Source: a virus (lineage: Duplodnaviria; Caudoviricetes). Taken from it: a stretch of 63,815 nucleotides of DNA. Under the pieces are notes generated by a model that ran no database searches, had not been told where the DNA came from, and saw only the letters and a program-made list of their open reading frames with translations. Positions 26,453 to 47,850 of the stretch are shown here, piece after piece (positions within the stretch are counted from its first letter, which is position 1; each line of letters starts with the position of its first letter). A program made the translations under genes and the position numbers. The stretch spans positions 1 to 63,815 of IMG/VR virus record IMGVR_UViG_3300009091_001004. The stretch is one strand, 5' to 3'.

Positions 26453-26481
26453 TTGACAATAATTTAATGTTCTGCTAAGAT
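26453..26481 (+). promoter_or_regulatory. Sigma70-type promoter for the structural operon
   Basis: TTGACA-17-TAAGAT with TG extension. Confidence 0.7.
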
Positions 26482-26523
26482 AGAGAAAATAGGTAGGCGT
26501 GGCTGGATGGGTGGAGAAGTACC

Positions 26524-26697
26524 ATGGTTGCAGGAACTAAAACAAGAGCTAAAAAGCGGGATGTTCTGAGATGCCCGGAGTGCCGTTCTACCCGGCTTAC
26601 CAAAGACGGCACCCAGATCTCCAACCGTTGCCGCGTCCAGCGTTACCTTTGTCATAACTGTTTTCGCAGAACAATTTACCCGAAGAAGGAGTTGTAG
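26524..26697 (+). CDS. InsA-like zinc-ribbon protein (57 aa, not in ORF track)
   Basis: MVAGTKTRAKKRDVLRCPECRSTRLTKDGTQISNRCRVQRYLCHNCFRRTIYPKKEL; CPxC..KDG..QRY.CxxC. Confidence 0.75.
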   Translation: MVAGTKTRAKKRDVLRCPECRSTRLTKDGTQISNRCRVQRYLCHNCFRRTIYPKKEL

Positions 26698-26700
26698 GAC

Positions 26701-29700
26701 GTGGCAGTTATACCTGCTCCGGGAACACAGGGAGAAAGCTACATTATAGTACCTGATGCGCCGGCGACTAGTCCGGCTCCTCCTGACGTGTCCCTGTCTA
26801 CAGCATACCAGCCCTCTAATCCGTATCCCGGGAGCCCGTTGCCTGGTATCGGTGATACTCCAGGGTACCCCGCTGATATGTCGGAAGGTTATGTTCCTCC
26901 TCCGATACCCGGCGCACCTGCCCCGACCTCCTTAACAGAGACAGTAAAACCTATTGTTACCCCGTCTGGGATGACAGAACTGATTGATTCTGGTGGTAGT
27001 GAACCTGTTCCCATCCCTCTCCCTGCGCCTCTCTTGCCATCGGTTCCAGTAGAGGAGCCCGTGGCTGTAGACCCATTTGCGGATATAAAGCAGAGATACG
27101 AGGATGCTGGTCTCATTATGCCTCCTACTGGTCCGAGCCCTGTAGTTTCAGAGCCCGCTTCTGCTACTTCACCCGTAGTAATCGGGACAATGCCATCTAC
27201 TGGTGAAGTGCTTGTCAAGGATACTGATGGTAATATGTACTGGAAACCCGGTACAGCAGAACAGATAACCGCTTTTGATCTCCTGATGACCCAGTATCCA
27301 GAAGGTAATTTCACGTCCCCGGTCTATATTCCTCCTACCGGGATAGATACCGCGCAACCGGCAGCCGGGTCCCTGGCGGGAGAAGACCCACTCCGGGCAT
27401 TAGACAACAAGTGGGGCATCCTGATCGTTGAGGATAGTGACGGACAGCTCACTTTCGTGGGAACAGAGGAACAATGGAACCAATATCAGCAGGACGTACA
27501 GGCAGCAGAACTCAGCACCGTATTGGTCTACAACTACCGTGGTAACGTGATAGAAATGCCTTTCAGAGAATTACAGGGCATGAGTGATCTCGTTGGAGAA
27601 GAGCAGTACGCGAAGGCTGTAGAACTGGGAATACTTCCGGAGGGAAAATTTATTCCCGGAGAAACTCCAGACAAGTGGTCCTATGTTCCGCAGTGGCAAG
27701 TTGAAGCACAGAACAATTTTGAAGCGACTCATACAAGAGTCGGGGATAATCAGTGGCTCCCCAATGAAGCACTCGAGGAGATACGGAATAGCTCTCCCGA
27801 GGCCTACAATATCGTTACCACAGAAGGTCTGGCGGCATACCAGTCCTGGTTTGACCAGAACTATTACAAGTTAGCTACCGGGGAGTATGTCAAGCAGGAT
27901 TACTATAATAATGTCCTTAATGCAGATGATAGAGAGAAACTCAATCTGATGGGTATCGACCGTTTCTCCCAGCTCCTAGCCCTCCGCGAGCAGCAATACA
28001 GGACGATGAGCGCCTCCCGGGAAGCGATAAATACTCAGGAAGGTGTTAACGCGGAGATTAATGAGTACGAAGGGATGCAGCGGGCAATAACATTGGGAAG
28101 GGGTATGTATTTCACGGAAGAGCAGCAGAATGTTATTGATGAGCTTGCTGCGTCCGGGTACGGCGTTCCTGTTATTGGTCCTCTTCCGAAAGAGGGACAG
28201 AAGGGTGTCGTCATTTCCTCCGATGGGGGACAGTACTCCGGGTTCAACATTCTGGATGCCTACCAGAGTGGATTTGATGTTGCCAAACTAACAGCCCTGT
28301 TTGGAGCAGAAATTGTCGACCGAGCGATAGCGCAGGATTCTGCTCTCTCCAATCTATCTTCTGTGAACTATCACGAAGTTGTTGACGGCAAGGATCTCTA
28401 CAATATTAACGCTTACTTGTTCGATAACAGGCGGAACCTGGACAGCGCAATAGCTACGCTGAAAACAGCAGGCTTCACGGAGGATGCGATCCGGTCTAGC
28501 ACTTCTTCTGTGGAGCAGTATAATTCCGATGTCAATCAGGTCATAATGCGCATCGATACTGGTCTTGGTTACAATGAAGCAGACTCGTTGAGTGCTACCC
28601 AGCGCTCTATTTTGGATGGCGCAGTGAGAAAAGCAGGATTTGAGTTAACATCTGCAAGTGGGACTGTGTGGTGGAAAACAGCAACCGAGGAAGAGAAGCA
28701 GAAGGTTGCCGAAATAGTGAATGATACATCCTACCAGGGGTTTATGGGACGGGAAAGCCTGCTCAAGAATCTCTGGGATGCCATCCGCCTGGGCAGCGTC
28801 GACATGTACTATGATCTCAAGAACCGTCTTGTCACTATGGTCAGCACCGAGTTCCGCGAGGTCAAAGAAGGAGACCTGCTTCCTCAGTATCGGCGTGATG
28901 CGGAGGCGTTGATGGCTGCGCAGGGCGCAGGGATACGCACAACTTATACTGCGGAAGAGGCTGCCCACGATAATGAGCTTAGTAAACCGATCCTAGAAAA
29001 GTATGACCAGATATATAAGAACACACTCCAGGCGAAAGAAAACTACCTGATAGCGAATCCAGATATTGCTCCAGTCTACGGTGCCGGTTTCCTGGATAGC
29101 GTGAAATCTAACCCGGGAGTGCTCGCGGATCCCACTCTCTGGGCTGAGACCATAGGACAGACTCTACCCTACACACTAGCCACAATAGGAAGCATGGTTG
29201 TCAGCCAACTGGTTACAGGAACACCGATATACGGTACACCGTTCGCTTTCGGTCTGACCTGGGGAGTAGAGGGTCAGGGTATTTATGATGATGCTATCAA
29301 GAACGGAGCCACCAGAGCCCAGGCTGAGTCTCTGGCTGAGCTCTTCGGCACCTTGTCCGCTGTAGTGGAAACTGCAGGAGACGCTGTCTTTGTGGGCGCT
29401 CTGGGAGGTATGACCAGCAAGATTACCAGCTCCCTGGGCAGGAATGTAGCCGATGGTGCTATCCGAACAGCGGCACTGCAAACTGGCTGGAGTAAACTTA
29501 CAGATAGCGCTGTCTTTGAGCTGATGAACCAGGGTGGCCAGGAGTGGCTCGAGCAGGTAATCCACAACGCAGCCATAAAGACAGTGAATGAGAACCGGGA
29601 AATGTTGGAGAATGCTGCTAGCGCTTTCGTCGGTGGAGTTGTCGGATCTCTTCCCTTTACCTTTATCCCGGTGGCAGTTGGGGGGCTACGGACAGCAGTC

Positions 29701-46710: not shown

Positions 46711-46887
46711 ATGAAAATACCCAGGGAGTGTCACCACAGGATTAGAGTATATACCTCGGGAAAGAGAGTGAGACAGGTAGTTACTCCCGGGGGAAGAATA
46801 ATTGAATCGAAAACGATGATAAGCCGGGCAAAGAATACCCGGACAGGACGAAAGCTTGCCCGGAGACGAAGGAGAATAAGAATATGA
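46711..46887 (+). CDS. 58-aa Arg-rich protein (not in ORF track), nucleoprotein candidate
   Basis: MKIPRECHHRIRVYTSGKRVRQVVTPGGRIIESKTMISRAKNTRTGRKLARRRRRIRI; GAGG RBS, ATGA overlap with next gene. Confidence 0.6.
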   Translation: MKIPRECHHRIRVYTSGKRVRQVVTPGGRIIESKTMISRAKNTRTGRKLARRRRRIRI

Positions 46888-47444
46888 TTGTAAAGAATAT
46901 AGTTGTTGCTGCTCCCCGAGAAATAACCGGGACAGACATAAAGCTTCTGGCGAAAGCACACTGGGAGAAGTACTTCTTTAACCGGGTATCGCTTCCGGGG
47001 AAGTCGACAATTCTGCTGTGGATTTCCCTGGTCCTGGTACTGGCTATGATTCCCTTCCTGGTTTCCGCAGCACAGAATACCCGGTATAACAGTACATTAA
47101 TAAAACAGTCCCTGACCGCCGTAGTTGTAGAAGGAAACCTGGAAACACTGGCCTTTCGCGACGGGAGCATACGCCTGTTTCAGGATAATGAGGAAGTGGC
47201 AACCGTACGATCGGTCCCGCTTCCAGGCAGTTCCAACGCAATCAATAACGGGAGCGTGGTCATGGTTCTGTTCCTGGTAACTGCAGTCCTTGTTACAATT
47301 GTGCGGTTCTGGTATATTAGTATTAAAAATACCTATATAGAGCGATGTGTAGGTAGATGGGAAGCTGGTTACCGTGAACTCCCCGACGAGAATTCTATAA
47401 TCAGCTACCTGGATGGGATATCCCGAGTGAAAAAAGAATCGTAA
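46884..47444 (+). CDS. Two-TM membrane protein
   Basis: AAGGAG RBS; two hydrophobic helices. Confidence 0.6.
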   Translation: MIVKNIVVAAPREITGTDIKLLAKAHWEKYFFNRVSLPGKSTILLWISLVLVLAMIPFLVSAAQNTRYNSTLIKQSLTAVVVEGNLETLAFRDGSIRLFQDNEEVATVRSVPLPGSSNAINNGSVVMVLFLVTAVLVTIVRFWYISIKNTYIERCVGRWEAGYRELPDENSIISYLDGISRVKKES

Positions 47445-47502
47445 GAGATAATCTTATAATAATAATAATTTATAAGAGATAATTTTAAGGGAGGAAAAAA
47501 GT

Positions 47503-47778
47503 ATGGGGATCCTGGACAAAATAAGAGGAGAGGATAAGGGTATCCCGGTCAATGCCTCGTTCCGGATTACCGAGCAGGGTAGAGACAAGCTGCAGGAGTT
47601 CTCCGGGAACGCAACAAGTCGCATACTGGTAGCACTGGAGACAAGGGGAACAAGCACAATCAACGAAATCAGCGCCGCCAGTGGTGTAGGGCGCGGCCAG
47701 GTGGAAAGATTAGTGCCGAAACTGATCACAGCCGGACATGTTCAGTACGCAAGCTCGGTCACGAGTGACGATATATAG
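47503..47778 (+). CDS. Winged-helix DNA-binding protein
   Basis: ILVAL...G.STINEIS..SGV....V...V..L...G.V pattern; GGAGG RBS. Confidence 0.7.
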   Translation: MGILDKIRGEDKGIPVNASFRITEQGRDKLQEFSGNATSRILVALETRGTSTINEISAASGVGRGQVERLVPKLITAGHVQYASSVTSDDI

Positions 47779-47850
47779 ACGCAGGATTATGGGCAAAGAG
47801 GAAATCAGAAGTAGTTAGGAAGTATTAAAAAGAATATGAAGGGGGTTCAG

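What the first reader, a model, noticed from the sequence alone, without database searches (positions are those of the whole stretch)
26453..47800. Candidate undescribed lineage: large non-tailed, membrane-assembled dsDNA virus of a bacterium
Seen: more than 60 kb of co-oriented genes with phage-type PolA and bacterial promoters/RBS. The structural region has only membrane or secreted proteins, a two-helix hydrophobic capsid-like protein, tiny TM proteins, basic proteins and a Zot/pI-like ATPase; I see no terminase, portal, HK97 capsid, tail or endolysin. Established: small hydrophobic capsid proteins, FtsK/Zot-like ATPases and non-lytic release characterise inoviruses (small ssDNA) and archaeal spindle-shaped or pleomorphic viruses, not large bacterial dsDNA phages. 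Inference: a budding or extruded, possibly spindle-shaped or filamentous, virus of a monoderm bacterium such as Dehalococcoidia.
Basis: partly seen in the sequence, partly recalled or inferred. Interest (0 to 1): 0.92.

Follow-up and report, generated by a model that had tools for sequence, protein, structure and literature searches.

The report
Large non-tailed bacterial virus lineage
This stretch looks like the particle-building module of a widespread, unnamed group of large bacterial DNA viruses that show none of the usual phage head and tail genes and instead centre on a tiny, extremely conserved membrane protein whose gene carries a self-splicing intron.

Summary
The window is one 63.8-kb virus record with all genes on the + strand, Shine-Dalgarno sites and a UDG-exonuclease-PolA replication module. 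Positions 26.4-47.8 kb hold giant surface or helical proteins, small membrane and basic proteins and a P-loop ATPase. Pfam, PHROG and six-frame HMM searches found no terminase, portal or HK97 capsid at family threshold, here or in four related IMG/VR records. Two of those records together give a near-complete map of about 80 kb. The ATPase defines a large unnamed metagenomic family: 392 proteins, none in 185,579 species genomes or in GenBank phages. Its fold is nearest RecA/RadA, Zot N-domain and STIV2 B204 and FtsK ATPases, not TerL, but it fails the Zot Pfam model. The "ORF 43070" is a 62-aa two-helix hairpin, the most conserved protein of the lineage. A 297-nt group I intron splits it, and a metatranscriptome contig shows the splice. 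Promoters, a GFTLIE prepilin and a lipobox point to a bacterial host; Dehalococcoidia rests on one label. No homology to any known capsid protein was found, and no particle has been seen. Closest published analogue: the 21-28 kb IME1 elements of Dehalococcoides. Verdict: probably a new large non-tailed bacterial virus lineage, with morphology unproven.

The parts
1..26324 (+). Replication and early module. Holds a GerE/LuxR HTH (2511-2945), an AAA_24 ATPase (3663-4493), an ERCC4+HhH nuclease (4506-5249), UDG-exo-PolA (8471-11200), a QueC-like protein (11476-12189) and many small unknown ORFs.
   Evidence: Pfam. PHROG. Orthologues at 50-66% identity in G001-G004.
26453..26481 (+). Sigma-70-like promoter TTGACA-17-TAAGAT with a TG extension, at the head of the module.
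   Evidence: 10 of 12 matches. It lies in the 26325-26523 intergenic gap.
26524..26697 (+). 57-aa zinc-ribbon protein with two CxxC pairs.
   Evidence: Sequence. Weak Zn_ribbon_PaaD match (E 2.4e-4, below the cut-off). 79% identity over 42 aa to G001.
26701..34869 (+). 2722-aa giant protein. It has a Pro-rich N-terminus, one hydrophobic Gly-rich stretch (about residues 815-1000), about 1000 residues of helical repeats, a PEPEP-type region and a C-terminal domain. It has no signal peptide. Only the N-terminal 130-260 aa are conserved in relatives, whose versions are 1344-1961 aa long.
   Evidence: No Pfam, PHROG or PDB family.
34897..35355 (+). 152-aa acidic protein (pI 4.1) that looks largely disordered (my reading of the sequence); conserved at 36-40% identity.
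35372..35710 (+). 112-aa two-TM protein of family DUF5317.
   Evidence: E 1.9e-8.
35725..40680 (+). 1651-aa surface protein. It has an N-terminal signal or anchor, three W-rich repeat heads, five FxYGxxxxYG repeat domains and two C-terminal TM helices.
   Evidence: Sequence. TM scan. No family. Partial orthologues.
40611..41942 (+). 443-aa membrane-anchored protein (probable true start at ATG 40677). It has an N-terminal anchor, a beta-rich ectodomain and two C-terminal TM helices. It is fused to the next gene in G003.
   Evidence: (45% identity over 426-445 aa).
41957..42508 (+). 183-aa protein with N- and C-terminal TM helices. Residues 26-108 weakly match a domain found in large phage virion, baseplate and fibre families.
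   Evidence: PHROG (best E 5.7e-7, phrog_4406 virion structural protein).
42556..42891 (+). 111-aa basic protein (pI 11.8).
42996..43024 (+). Best sigma-70-like promoter of the region, TTGACA-17-TATATT with TG, 46 nt upstream of the 62-aa gene.
   Evidence: 11 of 12 matches; sequence.
43070..43107 (+). Exon 1 of the 62-aa two-helix hydrophobic protein, the candidate major virion protein.
   Evidence: An RNA contig joins 43107 to 43405. The spliced frame gives 62 aa, 61 of 61 identical to the uninterrupted G003 orthologue.
43108..43404 (+). Group I intron, 297 nt, with no ORF longer than 61 codons.
   Evidence: Rfam RF00028: 42.3 bits, E 2.5e-9, full model, below the gathering score of 50. U before the 5' splice site and G as the last intron base. 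RNA run X9 has one contig that skips exactly 43108-43404 and one that joins 43404 back to 43120, a circle lacking the first 12 nt. DNA runs X1 and X2 are continuous here.
43405..43555 (+). Exon 2 of the 62-aa protein.
43704..43805 (+). 33-aa single-TM protein behind an AGGAGG site.
43824..44105 (+). 93-aa basic protein (pI 10.1), conserved in 38 of 80 metagenome loci at a mean of 59% identity.
44132..44953 (+). 273-aa protein with a hydrophobic stretch near each end and a beta-rich middle. Found in 48 of 80 loci.
   Evidence: Its Atlas neighbours are all unnamed viral clusters.
44972..45556 (+). 194-aa soluble protein with a basic Gly/Ala/Pro-rich N-terminus and a conserved C-domain. It overlaps the ATPase start. 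Found in 72 of 80 loci.
45519..46682 (+). 387-aa P-loop ATPase, the hallmark gene of the lineage. It has an ASCE core, a four-strand beta domain and a C-terminal three-helix (wHTH-like) domain.
46711..46887 (+). 58-aa basic protein (pI 12.0).
   Evidence: 13 of 80 loci.
46884..47444 (+). 186-aa two-TM protein.
47503..47778 (+). 91-aa winged-helix protein (TrmB/MarR-like, sub-threshold), found in 64 of 80 loci.
47836..53612 (+). Variable secreted cassette, low in G+C (0.42-0.43 at 48-52 kb). It holds a 287-aa and an 897-aa secreted protein, a type IV prepilin (51403-51774, GFTLIE), a 197-aa secreted protein and a 382-aa lipoprotein (lipobox LSGCAG).
   Evidence: Few orthologues in relatives.
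53644..56890 (+). Conserved membrane block downstream of the finding: proteins of 300 aa (signal plus TM helices), 107 aa (two TM), 151 aa (basic), 179 aa and 407 aa (7 or more TM).
56896..63815 (+). Glycan-synthesis cluster: GT2, two radical SAM/SPASM proteins, an NAD-dependent sugar dehydratase and a DegT aminotransferase (cut by the record end). It is also conserved in G003, so it belongs to the element.
   Evidence: 60-73% identity to G003. It continues in G003 with GT1/GT4, methyltransferases, an epimerase and an Asn-synthetase-like protein.

Best explanation
The region 26.4-47.8 kb, together with the conserved membrane block up to 56.9 kb, is the morphogenesis module of a widespread, undescribed lineage of large bacterial dsDNA viruses. 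Their genome map is about 80-96 kb. They do not use the HK97-capsid, portal and terminase machinery.

Shown. (1) The gene set and its order are conserved in many independent metagenomes. (2) No head-tail gene was detected over a near-complete genome map. (3) An ultra-conserved 62-aa helix-turn-helix hydrophobic protein is under strong purifying selection, and its mRNA is made and spliced in nature. (4) An ASCE ATPase has nearest folds in RecA/RadA, Zot N-domain, STIV2 B204 and FtsK. (5) The expression and export signals are bacterial.

Inferred. (1) The 62-aa protein inserts into the host membrane and is the major virion protein. (2) The ATPase, docked on the flanking two-TM proteins (273 aa and 186 aa), moves or condenses the dsDNA into a membrane-derived particle. 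(3) The small basic proteins neutralise the DNA. (4) The giant proteins with C-terminal TM anchors (1651, 443 and 183 aa) and the variable secreted cassette serve as spikes or adhesins. (5) The large glycan cluster decorates them. (6) Release is by budding or extrusion rather than lysis. Particle shape (pleomorphic, spindle or filament) is not resolved.
For: Gene map, single strand and SD sites.

No head, tail, terminase, portal or lysin family:
- Pfam and PHROG on the larger proteins of 26.4-47.8 kb.
- Downstream proteins and upstream proteins.
- Small proteins.
- Six-frame HMM searches of G000-G004: Terminase_6N 0 of 5, TerL_ATPase 0 of 5, Phage_portal 0 of 5, Phage_capsid 0 of 5 over the cut-off.

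Lineage:
- The ATPase has 392 homologues at E<=1e-3. The 120 listed (including the window's own protein) are 54-100% identical and none carries a Pfam domain.
- 163 of 187 candidate JGI metagenome stretches encode a relative.
- 161 representatives match at E<=1e-3 among 1.84 billion.
- 4 IMG/VR records match. None matches in GenBank phages. None matches in 185,579 species genomes.

Synteny of the module across G001-G004 and the long loci.

Near-complete map:
- G004 and G003 are one virus (99.98% identity over 27.9 kb).
- G003's far-end genes (529 aa, 197 aa) are homologues of the first genes of G001 and G002.
- The extra genes are DNA methylases, a helicase, glycan enzymes and small ORFs.

The 62-aa protein:
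- Found in 22 of 80 loci by BLASTP at a mean of 88% identity, and in 40 sequences by tblastn.
- Mean pairwise amino-acid identity is 84%, against 62% for the ATPase in the same 17 genomes.
- There are 3885 synonymous against 1280 non-synonymous codon differences.
- It has tandem paralogues in 7 loci (6 distinct; L068 and L070 look identical).
- AF2 gives helices 3-27 and 33-60, pLDDT 76.
- The best promoter of the region lies upstream.
- A spliced RNA contig covers it.

ATPase fold:
- PDB hits are RadA, Zot N-domain 2r2a (TM by target 0.52), STIV2 B204 and FtsK.
- BFVD hits are Inoviridae Zot, ATV ORF286, Acholeplasma phage L2 P42538 and an A32-like ATPase. No TerL is among the 50 listed in either search.
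- A weak HerA profile hit aligns Walker A, Walker B and the TQ motif.

Bacterial host: GFTLIE prepilin, lipobox, GerE HTH, promoters.

Published analogues of the same logic: IME1 and Huangdivirus, a proposed spindle-shaped virus of Bathyarchaeia.
Against: No particle, proteome or host is known.

The 62-aa protein could not be tied to any capsid family:
- PHROG: none at E<=0.1.
- His1_capsid PF25665: 0 of 5 records at E<=10.
- hhalign probability is 0.3% to His1 ORF21 and 0.8% to SSV1 VP3, no better than two control TM proteins at 0.2-0.4%.
- The best Foldseek E-value is 3.4.
- The only link is an Atlas neighbour at 0.89 in which 11% of members carry His1_capsid.

The ATPase model is mediocre (pLDDT 68.6). 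TM-scores are 0.2-0.58, and RadA, DnaB and KaiC rank as high as Zot and B204. Zot Pfam matches 0 of 5 records at E<=10.

The genome is not closed. G003's end and G004's start do not overlap, and the window is 63.8 kb of a contig of at least 85 kb. CheckV completeness estimates of 38-42% for G000, G001 and G003 would allow a larger genome.

Hints of tailed-phage kinship:
- The nearest PolA relatives are Caudoviricetes at 24-29% identity.
- The 183-aa protein weakly matches virion, baseplate and fibre PHROGs.
- A sub-threshold Phage_capsid stretch (14.3 bits) lies inside G002's 2428-aa protein.
- Atlas neighbours are auto-labelled Uroviricota.
- By my own reading, the 2722-aa helical protein with a hydrophobic stretch resembles a tape-measure or ejection protein.

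Host labels are one Dehalococcoidia and one Ignavibacteria.
Confidence: 0.55

Rival explanations
1. It is a membrane-containing icosahedral virus of the PRD1, PM2, STIV or sphaerolipovirus type. An FtsK/HerA-class ATPase would pump DNA through a vertex into an internal-membrane capsid. The jelly-roll capsid protein would be too divergent to recognise, and the 62-aa protein would be an abundant internal-membrane protein rather than the capsid.
For: The ATPase resembles STIV2 B204 (E 1.7e-4), FtsK and an A32-like ATPase, with a weak HerA match. It is flanked by two-TM proteins. By my own recall, PRD1 P9 is flanked in the same way by P20 and P22. Many small TM proteins are present. Conserved soluble proteins of 151, 179 and 194 aa remain unfolded and unexplained.
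Against: No jelly-roll capsid family was found by Pfam or PHROG in any protein tested. No conserved soluble protein of 250-500 aa is left to play a double jelly-roll capsid protein. By my own recall, known bacterial members have genomes of 10-20 kb, not 80 kb or more.
Confidence: 0.15
2. It is not a virus but another extrachromosomal element. It could be a large plasmid-like replicon or an element spread in membrane vesicles. The membrane, surface and glycan genes would then remodel the host envelope, and the ATPase would serve segregation or transfer.
For: No capsid homologue of any kind was found. There is a large glycan cluster and many surface proteins. IMG/VR itself cut G000, G001 and G002 as 'provirus', so part of their contigs looked cellular. 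The ATPase fold is generic RecA-like.
Against: No relaxase, VirB4, partition or integrase family was found in the proteins scanned; the tyrosine integrase matched 0 of 5 records. The replication module is phage-like, with UDG-PolA, AAA_24 and QueC. The family never appears in 185,579 species genomes, which include binned MAGs. One ATPase homologue carries the source label 'viral metagenome'. Group I introns crowd into one tiny gene; by my own recall that is typical of phage core genes.
Confidence: 0.15
3. It is an ordinary but very divergent tailed phage. Either its head and tail genes lie on the unseen part of the genome, or they are among the unknown proteins. The 2722-aa protein would be a tape-measure or ejection protein, and the 62-aa protein a holin-like membrane protein.
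For: The PolA, AAA_24 and QueC module is of Caudoviricetes type. There are weak virion, baseplate and fibre PHROG hits. A sub-threshold Phage_capsid stretch lies in G002. CheckV completeness is 38-42%. The genome is unclosed. Automatic labels say Uroviricota.
Against: Terminase, portal and capsid HMMs matched 0 of 5 records over the cut-off. The G004 plus G003 map is nearly closed by synteny. It leaves only one soluble unknown protein of 300 aa or more, the 430-aa one, which has no phage or PDB match. The ATPase shows no TerL among 100 listed fold hits. By my own recall, a holin would not be the most conserved protein of a lineage, yet this one is 84% identical against 62% for the ATPase.
Confidence: 0.1

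Closest known systems
IME1 elements of Dehalococcoides, proposed as budding and probably filamentous dsDNA viruses of Chloroflexota (bioRxiv 10.64898/2026.09.15.751708; I read the abstract and sections 6, 9 and 11)
   Same: Both are bacterial dsDNA elements without tailed-phage hallmarks. Both have a conserved virion module built from an ATPase of the pI/packaging class, several small hydrophobic TM proteins (two of them paralogous and VP1-like in IME1) and larger signal-peptide/TM proteins. 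The host may also be of the same phylum (one pilin label).
   Different: IME1 is 21-28 kb, integrates with a tyrosine recombinase and replicates with a primase-helicase. This lineage is about 80-96 kb and has its own PolA module and a 15-25 kb glycan cluster. It has no integrase (0 of 5 records). Its ATPase fails the Zot Pfam model, whereas the IME1 protein is reported to be sequence-similar to pI. Direct homology could not be tested, because the IME1 sequences and the paper's supplementary tables were not available here.
Spindle-shaped archaeal viruses (His1 of Halspiviridae, SSV1 of Fuselloviridae, and the proposed Huangdivirus of Bathyarchaeia)
   Same: Both have a capsid-type protein of about 60-90 aa made of two hydrophobic helices joined by a short turn, often in two paralogues. 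Around it lie proteins with N- and C-terminal TM anchors, CxxC mini-proteins, a glycosyltransferase and an ATPase (His1 and SSV1 annotation; passages of PMC10848311).
   Different: The host signals here are bacterial. The genome is 3-6 times larger. No sequence kinship was found: PF25665 matched 0 of 5 records and hhalign probability was 0.3-0.8%. The replication genes are of phage type.
Inoviridae (pI/Zot assembly ATPase plus a small hydrophobic coat protein)
   Same: At fold level the ATPase resembles the Zot N-domain (2r2a, E 3.1e-5, TM by target 0.52; Inoviridae Zot models). It sits among small hydrophobic proteins.
   Different: The Zot Pfam model does not match. The ATPase has no TM segment. 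By my own recall, inoviruses have ssDNA genomes of 4-11 kb. This genome is dsDNA-sized and PolA-replicated.
FtsK/HerA-class genome-packaging ATPases of membrane-containing viruses (STIV2 B204, A32-like)
   Same: Fold hits of E 1.7e-4 to B204 and 8.5e-4 to FtsK. HerA aligns over Walker A, Walker B and the TQ motif.
   Different: The protein is 350-390 aa with an added beta domain and a C-terminal winged-helix-like domain. No jelly-roll capsid partner was found.
Plasmaviridae (Acholeplasma phage L2)
   Same: By my own recall, L2 is an enveloped, pleomorphic, budding dsDNA virus of a wall-less bacterium. Its 37.2-kDa protein P42538 is among the fold neighbours of the ATPase (E 7e-4).
   Different: By my own recall, L2 has a genome of about 12 kb. 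No other shared gene was tested or seen.
SPO1-like and other Caudoviricetes with UDG-PolA fusions
   Same: The replication module shares the UDG-exo-PolA architecture, at 24-29% identity.
   Different: None of their head, tail or terminase genes was detected here.

Membership tests
Caudoviricetes (tailed phages) | Terminase large subunit | tested here: not met
   Terminase_6N PF03237 and TerL_ATPase PF03354 matched 0 of 5 records at E<=1. No terminase family appeared in any Pfam or PHROG scan. No TerL is among the 50 PDB and 50 BFVD fold neighbours listed for the ATPase.
Caudoviricetes (tailed phages) | Portal protein | tested here: not met
   Phage_portal PF04860 matched 0 of 5 records. No portal family appeared in the Pfam or PHROG scans listed above.
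Caudoviricetes (tailed phages) | HK97-fold major capsid protein | tested here: not met
   Phage_capsid PF05065 matched 0 of 5 records over the cut-off. One 14.3-bit stretch lies inside G002's 2428-aa protein. No capsid family appeared in the Pfam or PHROG scans. Folds of the unknown proteins were not predicted, because only two fold jobs were allowed.
Inoviridae pI / Zot ATPase (PF05707) | Match to the Zot family model | tested here: not met
   0 of 5 records at E<=10. No Pfam hit for the protein at E<=0.01.
Inoviridae pI / Zot ATPase (PF05707) | Zot-like ASCE fold | tested here: inconclusive
   2r2a at E 3.1e-5, TM 0.29 by query and 0.52 by target. Inoviridae Zot models at E 7e-7 to 4e-4. RadA, DnaB and KaiC score alike, and the model pLDDT is 68.6.
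Spindle-shaped virus capsid proteins (His1_capsid PF25665; SSV1 VP1/VP3) | Sequence match to the family | tested here: not met
   PF25665 matched 0 of 5 records at E<=10. hhalign gave 0.3% to His1 ORF21 and 0.8% to SSV1 VP3, against 0.2-0.4% for controls. No PHROG at E<=0.1.
Spindle-shaped virus capsid proteins (His1_capsid PF25665; SSV1 VP1/VP3) | Two hydrophobic helices joined by a short turn, in a protein of about 60-90 aa | tested here: met
   The AF2 model has helices 3-27 and 33-60 around an invariant GTDTGS turn, pLDDT 76. The feature is not specific: Foldseek found no significant match.
Spindle-shaped virus capsid proteins (His1_capsid PF25665; SSV1 VP1/VP3) | Presence in virions | not testable with these tools
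   Needs particle proteomics.
IME1-type elements | Tyrosine recombinase at the 5' end; size 21-28 kb | tested here: not met
   PF00589 matched 0 of 5 records at E<=0.01. The records are 39-68 kb and the map is about 80 kb.
IME1-type elements | Homology to the 14 conserved IME1 protein groups | not testable with these tools
   No IME1 sequence could be reached.
Group I intron (RF00028) | Match to the covariance model | tested here: inconclusive
   The window intron scores 42.3 bits against a gathering score of 50, E 2.5e-9, full length. Introns in the same gene of L037 (59.4 bits) and L029 (52.8 bits) pass the gathering score.
Group I intron (RF00028) | Precise excision from RNA, U before the 5' splice site, terminal G, circularised intron | tested here: met
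   An RNA contig joins 43107 to 43405. A second joins 43404 to 43120. The DNA runs are unspliced. The bases were checked. Self-splicing in vitro was not tested.
Type IV prepilin (PF07963) | N-terminal G|FTLIE cleavage/methylation motif | tested here: met
   Sequence. PHROG pilin at E 2.4e-12. The window's own protein is listed with PF07963.

The most novel reading that the evidence does not exclude
This is the first large (80-96 kb) bacterial member of the 'small hydrophobic two-helix capsid protein' style of virion, so far known from archaeal spindle-shaped and pleomorphic viruses and just proposed for the small IME1 elements. It would be a family-level or higher lineage independent of tailed phages. 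It would build a glycosylated, membrane-derived particle around an 80-kb dsDNA genome, leave its host without lysis, probably infect Chloroflexota-like bacteria of freshwater, wetland and sediment habitats, and be missed or mislabelled by current virus-finding pipelines.
Probability: 0.4. Interest if true: 0.92.

Novelty: new variant of a known kind. Interest (0 to 1): 0.8.

Why it matters
By my own recall, nearly all known large bacterial dsDNA viruses are tailed. Non-tailed bacterial viruses are small, and capsids built from tiny hydrophobic helix hairpins are treated as archaea-specific (PMC10848311, passages).

A widespread bacterial lineage of about 80 kb with that kind of module would change three things. 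It would widen the known architectures of bacterial viruses. It would link the bacterial and archaeal virospheres. It would also expose a blind spot of virus-detection tools: only 5 IMG/VR records hold the lineage, against 163 JGI metagenome stretches that encode the hallmark ATPase. IMG/VR classes three of the five records as 'provirus'; for G001, conserved genes of the element run on past the cut.

The finding also offers a ready experimental handle. The 62-aa gene is a hot spot for group I introns, with at least five insertion sites. Its splicing and intron circle are already visible in a public metatranscriptome.

Tried and rejected
Homo-oligomer test of the 62-aa protein (4 copies, alignment A2): the verdict was 'no answer' with score 0.00, and the controls were not run. 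It counts neither way.

Foldseek of the 62-aa model against BFVD gave a best E of 3.4, which is uninformative for a helical hairpin.

The Atlas search of the 273-aa protein gave only unnamed viral clusters.

PDB sequence searches:
- The 2722-aa and 1651-aa proteins gave only low-complexity or chance hits.
- The 897-aa protein gave nothing.
- The G003 430-aa protein gave nothing. It also has no GenBank phage match.

Attempts to name the bins of ATPase homologues returned no names for 10 close and 10 distant proteins.

Attempt to reach smaller or more distant relatives in IMG/VR with distant ATPase homologues:
- Alignment A3 was too diverse.
- The narrower A4 matched 82 stretches, none confirmed.

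The first single-protein scan of IMG/VR found nothing. The alignment scan found 4 records. A degenerate DNA pattern for the 62-aa protein found the same 4.

Host search with the DegT protein in species genomes gave three matches at 31-37% identity in unrelated phyla, which is no help. A CRISPR-spacer search in Chloroflexota genomes could not be set up, because I had no genome handle in that phylum.

Metagenome loci cannot be used as handles. So the rest of the 95,694-bp contig behind L025 and the 85,033-bp contig of the window could not be read.

RNA run X9 gave contigs only over 43043-43618 of the 5.8 kb laid. The lack of cover elsewhere is no finding.

An archaeal host was considered because of the short XPF-like ERCC4+HhH nuclease, the TrmB-like wHTH, the zinc ribbons and the C-terminal TM anchors. 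It was rejected because of the GFTLIE prepilin, the lipobox, the GerE regulator and the TTGACA-17-TATATT promoter.

The CheckV completeness values (38-100%) disagree with each other and with the synteny-based closure, so I did not use them for genome size.

The supplementary tables of the IME1 preprint (S2, S11, S12) were not seen. They may list larger IME1-like contigs or ATPase relatives that bear on whether this lineage is already noted there.

Literature searches found no description of this lineage. They cover only the held library.

Full report
WHAT THE WINDOW IS. The window is the whole of one virus record (G000, 63,815 bp). It has no terminal direct or inverted repeat. IMG/VR classes it as a 'provirus' cut from a longer contig, and the window's own ATPase is on record on an 85,033-bp contig. 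All plausible genes lie on the + strand, and most starts follow an AGGAGG-type site. ARAGORN found no tRNA genes, and no Rfam family reaches its gathering score.

REPLICATION MODULE (1-26 kb). Pfam finds a GerE/LuxR regulator, an AAA_24 ATPase, an ERCC4+HhH nuclease, a UDG + exonuclease + family A polymerase fusion and a QueC-like protein. The polymerase is only 24-29% identical to its nearest GenBank phage relatives, which are Caudoviricetes with the same fusion.

THE REGION OF THE FINDING (26,453-47,800). Behind a sigma-70-like promoter (26453-26481) the genes run in this order:
- a 57-aa zinc ribbon;
- a 2722-aa protein, Pro-rich at both ends, with one hydrophobic Gly-rich stretch and about 1000 residues of helical repeats;
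- an acidic 152-aa protein;
- a two-TM DUF5317 protein;
- a 1651-aa surface protein with an N-terminal signal, repeat domains and two C-terminal TM helices;
- a 443-aa and a 183-aa protein, each anchored at both ends;
- a basic 111-aa protein;
- the split 62-aa gene;
- a 33-aa TM protein;
- a basic 93-aa protein;
- a 273-aa protein with a hydrophobic stretch near each end;
- a 194-aa soluble protein;
- the 387-aa ATPase;
- a basic 58-aa protein;
- a two-TM 186-aa protein;
- a 91-aa winged-helix protein.

Pfam and PHROG gave no head, tail, terminase, portal or lysin family for any of these. There were two exceptions of note. One is DUF5317. The other is a weak match of residues 26-108 of the 183-aa protein to a domain of large virion, baseplate and fibre PHROGs (best E 5.7e-7). 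'Only membrane or secreted proteins' overstates it, because several proteins are soluble.

DOWNSTREAM OF THE FINDING. The element continues with three blocks:
- a low-G+C variable cassette of secreted proteins, including a type IV prepilin with the bacterial GFTLIE motif and a lipoprotein with a LSGCAG lipobox;
- a conserved membrane block (300, 107, 151, 179 and 407 aa);
- a glycan-synthesis cluster that the record end cuts.

A REAL AND WIDESPREAD LINEAGE.
- The ATPase has 392 homologues at E<=1e-3 in the 5.8-billion-protein collection. The 120 listed (including the window's own protein) are 54-100% identical, none carries a Pfam domain, and the few names given are 'hypothetical' or 'uncharacterized'.
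- A profile search of 1.84 billion representatives found only 161 matches, so the family is compact and isolated.
- There is no match in GenBank phages.
- There is no match in one genome each of 185,579 prokaryote species, within the reach of a two-pattern scan.
- IMG/VR holds four further records.
- In JGI metagenomes, 163 of 187 candidate stretches encode a relative.
- The four IMG/VR records share PolA at 58-66% identity and the same gene order.
- The long metagenome loci show the same order, from the giant protein to the 407-aa membrane protein.
- In the 95,694-bp contig behind L025, conserved genes of the element run on past the end of IMG/VR's 'provirus' G001. That boundary is therefore an artefact. 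The likely cause is that the glycan and membrane genes look cellular.
- No tyrosine integrase was found in any of the 5 records.

IS THE HEAD-TAIL MODULE SIMPLY OFF THE CONTIG? G004 and G003 are the same virus (99.98% identity over 27.9 kb), and together they span 79.4 kb. The genes at G003's far end are a 529-aa protein with weak protein-primed PolB similarity and a 197-aa protein. They are homologues of the first genes of G001 and G002, and these lie just upstream of genes that match G004's head. By synteny the map therefore closes with little or nothing missing. No sequence overlap was found, however, so closure is inferred and not shown.

The parts of that map that the window lacks encode:
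- two DNA methylases, one with a LAGLIDADG insert, and a helicase;
- glycosyltransferases, methyltransferases and an epimerase;
- an asparagine-synthetase-like enzyme;
- a 12-TM protein;
- a block of small minus-strand ORFs.

Only one soluble protein of 300 aa or more remains unexplained. It is 430 aa long and has no PHROG, Pfam, phage or PDB match. Six-frame HMM searches of all five records gave Terminase_6N 0 of 5, TerL_ATPase 0 of 5 and Phage_portal 0 of 5. Phage_capsid gave 0 of 5 over the cut-off, with one 14.3-bit stretch inside G002's 2428-aa secreted protein. A tailed phage is therefore unlikely, though not excluded. Its rival evidence is listed in the Against line.

THE ATPASE. Thirty-two family members align at a mean column identity of 62%, with invariant Walker A and a hhhhTE Walker B. 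The AF2 model (pLDDT 68.6) has an ASCE core, a four-strand beta domain and a three-helix C-terminal domain.
- Foldseek against the PDB lists RadA, the Zot N-domain (2r2a; E 3.1e-5; TM 0.52 by target), DnaB, the STIV2 B204 packaging NTPase, KaiC and FtsK.
- Foldseek against BFVD lists Inoviridae Zot proteins, ATV ORF286, the Acholeplasma phage L2 protein P42538 and an A32-like packaging ATPase, beside DnaB-type helicases.
- No terminase appears among the 50 rows listed in either search.
- A PDB profile search gave only a weak HerA hit (E 0.13) that aligns Walker A, Walker B and the TQ motif.
- The Zot Pfam model finds nothing at E<=10.

'Zot/pI-like' is thus a fair description of the fold class, but membership is not met.

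THE 62-AA PROTEIN AND ITS INTRON. Homologues in other loci begin MSVRGLVTVVIG. In the window those codons lie at 43070-43108, about 300 nt upstream of the ORF that carries the rest.
- Rfam's group I intron model matches 43098-43396 over its full length (42.3 bits, E 2.5e-9, below the gathering score of 50).
- The boundaries I inferred are U43107 as the last exon base and G43404 as the last intron base. They were confirmed independently. In a public metatranscriptome (run X9) one contig joins 43107 to 43405, skipping exactly 297 nt. Another joins 43404 back to 43120, which is an intron circle lacking its first 12 nt, as group I introns form.
- Contigs of two DNA runs pass through unspliced.
- The spliced frame gives 62 aa, 61 of 61 identical to the uninterrupted G003 orthologue.

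tblastn found the gene in 40 sequences: 36 metagenome loci plus G000-G003, a few of them duplicates of one virus. Of these 40:
- 18 are uninterrupted;
- 15 are split into collinear pieces;
- 3 lack a detectable first exon;
- 4 are cut by a contig end.

The breaks fall after about residues 10, 13, 12-18, 22, 26 and 35, and two loci carry two or more. Two of these introns pass Rfam's gathering score (L037 at 59.4 bits, L029 at 52.8 bits). Seven loci (six distinct: L068 and L070 look identical) carry two tandem copies of the gene.

The protein is the most conserved of the lineage. Mean pairwise identity is 84%, against 62% for the ATPase in the same 17 genomes. Nucleotide identity is only 71%, and there are 3885 synonymous against 1280 non-synonymous codon differences. 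AF2 gives two helices (3-27 and 33-60) joined by the invariant GTDTGS turn. The best promoter match of the region, TTGACA-17-TATATT with a TG extension, lies 46 nt upstream.

These traits fit an abundant, tightly packed structural protein. But nothing ties it to a known capsid family:
- no PHROG;
- no His1_capsid match in 5 records;
- hhalign no better than controls;
- no significant Foldseek match;
- none of the 120 listed homologues carries a Pfam domain.

The one positive hint is an Atlas neighbour at 0.89 in which 11% of members carry His1_capsid. That is below the tool's own bar.

HOST. The host signals are bacterial:
- a GFTLIE prepilin (PF07963);
- a lipobox;
- a GerE regulator;
- canonical -35/-10 promoters at the two key intergenic gaps.

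The phylum is open. Of the 120 listed pilin homologues only one carries an organism label, a Dehalococcoidia MAG at 56% identity. Of the 120 listed homologues of the 62-aa protein only one carries a label, an Ignavibacteria MAG, and it sits on a 2-kb contig. Besides its possible source, the same virus (99% identity or more) is present in freshwater and wetland metagenomes of two further studies.

COMPARISON WITH WHAT IS KNOWN. The closest published case is a 2026 preprint on the IME1 elements of Dehalococcoides. I read its abstract and sections 6, 9 and 11. These are dsDNA elements of 21-28 kb without tailed-phage hallmarks. They carry a pI-like ATPase followed by small TM proteins, two of which resemble SSV1 VP1. 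They are abundant in viromes together with filamentous particles, and are proposed to be budding viruses restricted to Chloroflexota.

The window's lineage follows the same logic but differs in four ways. It is three to four times larger. It has its own PolA-based replication module and a large glycan cluster. It has no integrase. Its ATPase does not match Zot by sequence. Whether the two are homologous could not be tested.

The archaeal spindle-shaped viruses also look alike in layout. His1 has a two-TM capsid gene followed by proteins with terminal TM anchors, CxxC mini-proteins and a glycosyltransferase. The proposed Bathyarchaeia spindle virus has two-helix capsid proteins, an ATV-like ATPase and a glycosyltransferase (passages of PMC10848311). 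No sequence membership was met, and the host domain differs.

VERDICT. The most likely reading, at about 0.55, is a large non-tailed, membrane-associated bacterial virus. Its core would be the 62-aa hairpin protein and a Zot/FtsK-class ATPase. Shape, release mode and host are inferences. The rivals are an internal-membrane icosahedral virus with an unrecognised capsid protein (0.15), a non-viral element (0.15) and a very divergent tailed phage (0.10). The group I intron hot spot, with direct RNA evidence of splicing, is a new observation of its own.

Noticed in passing
window 43108-43404; also L024, L026, L027, L029, L031, L035, L037, L041, L058, L067, L081, L089, L102, G002: The 183-nt gene of the 62-aa protein is a hot spot for introns. 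Breaks fall after about residues 10, 13, 12-18, 22, 26 and 35, with gaps of about 190-1000 nt, and some loci hold two or more. Two of the introns pass Rfam's group I gathering score. The window's intron is seen spliced out and circularised in a metatranscriptome.
   Followed up: yes
L051, L068, L070, L073, L075, L077, L097 (coordinates): Seven related loci (six distinct: L068 and L070 look identical) carry two tandem copies of the 61-aa gene, 71-98% identical to the G003 orthologue. This recalls the paired capsid paralogues of SSV1 and the HOG00/HOG01 pair of IME1.
   Followed up: partly
G001:C1:22645-26301 (loci L008, L009): The PolA orthologue of G001 lies in an open frame of 1277 aa. The match is split (query residues 7-829 and 818-908), which suggests an in-frame insertion such as an intein.
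   Followed up: no
L021:7079-10003 (G004): A 974-aa DNA methylase (N6_N4_Mtase) carries a LAGLIDADG-like domain at residues 354-412. This may be another intein or a homing-endonuclease insertion.
   Followed up: no
L011:3750-5339 (G003), with homologues at the start of G001 and G002: A conserved 529-aa protein has weak similarity to protein-primed family B DNA polymerases (PHROG DNA polymerase E 6.2e-7; Pfam DNA_pol_B_2 E 0.0059). It occurs beside the PolA in the same genomes.
   Followed up: partly
window 47836-53612: A cassette low in G+C (0.42-0.43 against about 0.50) holds a prepilin and three proteins (897, 197 and 300 aa) that share the motif stretches 'ADITITATP' and 'FTGGVGW ... FTDGVAKS'. 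It has few orthologues in relatives, as expected of host-recognition genes.
   Followed up: partly
window 11476-12189: A QueC-like protein (E 1.3e-9). By my own recall, phages use this family for 7-deazaguanine DNA modification.
   Followed up: no
G000, G001, G002 record ends; L025:11612-17273: IMG/VR's 'provirus' cut of G001 falls inside the element: conserved genes of the lineage continue beyond the cut in the parent contig. G000 ends inside the DegT gene of the conserved glycan cluster and G002 ends inside the 407-aa gene homologue.
   Followed up: yes
window 43362-43397 (run X1, record 2): A 151-nt contig of the same sample matches only the 3' end of the intron. It then continues into a different exon sequence that encodes the same protein motif. 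So a related virus with a related intron is present in that sample.
   Followed up: no
window 45519-46682, residues about 285-304: The window's ATPase and its closest relative P0002 carry a Cys-rich insertion that the other 30 aligned members lack. The model is of low confidence there.
   Followed up: no
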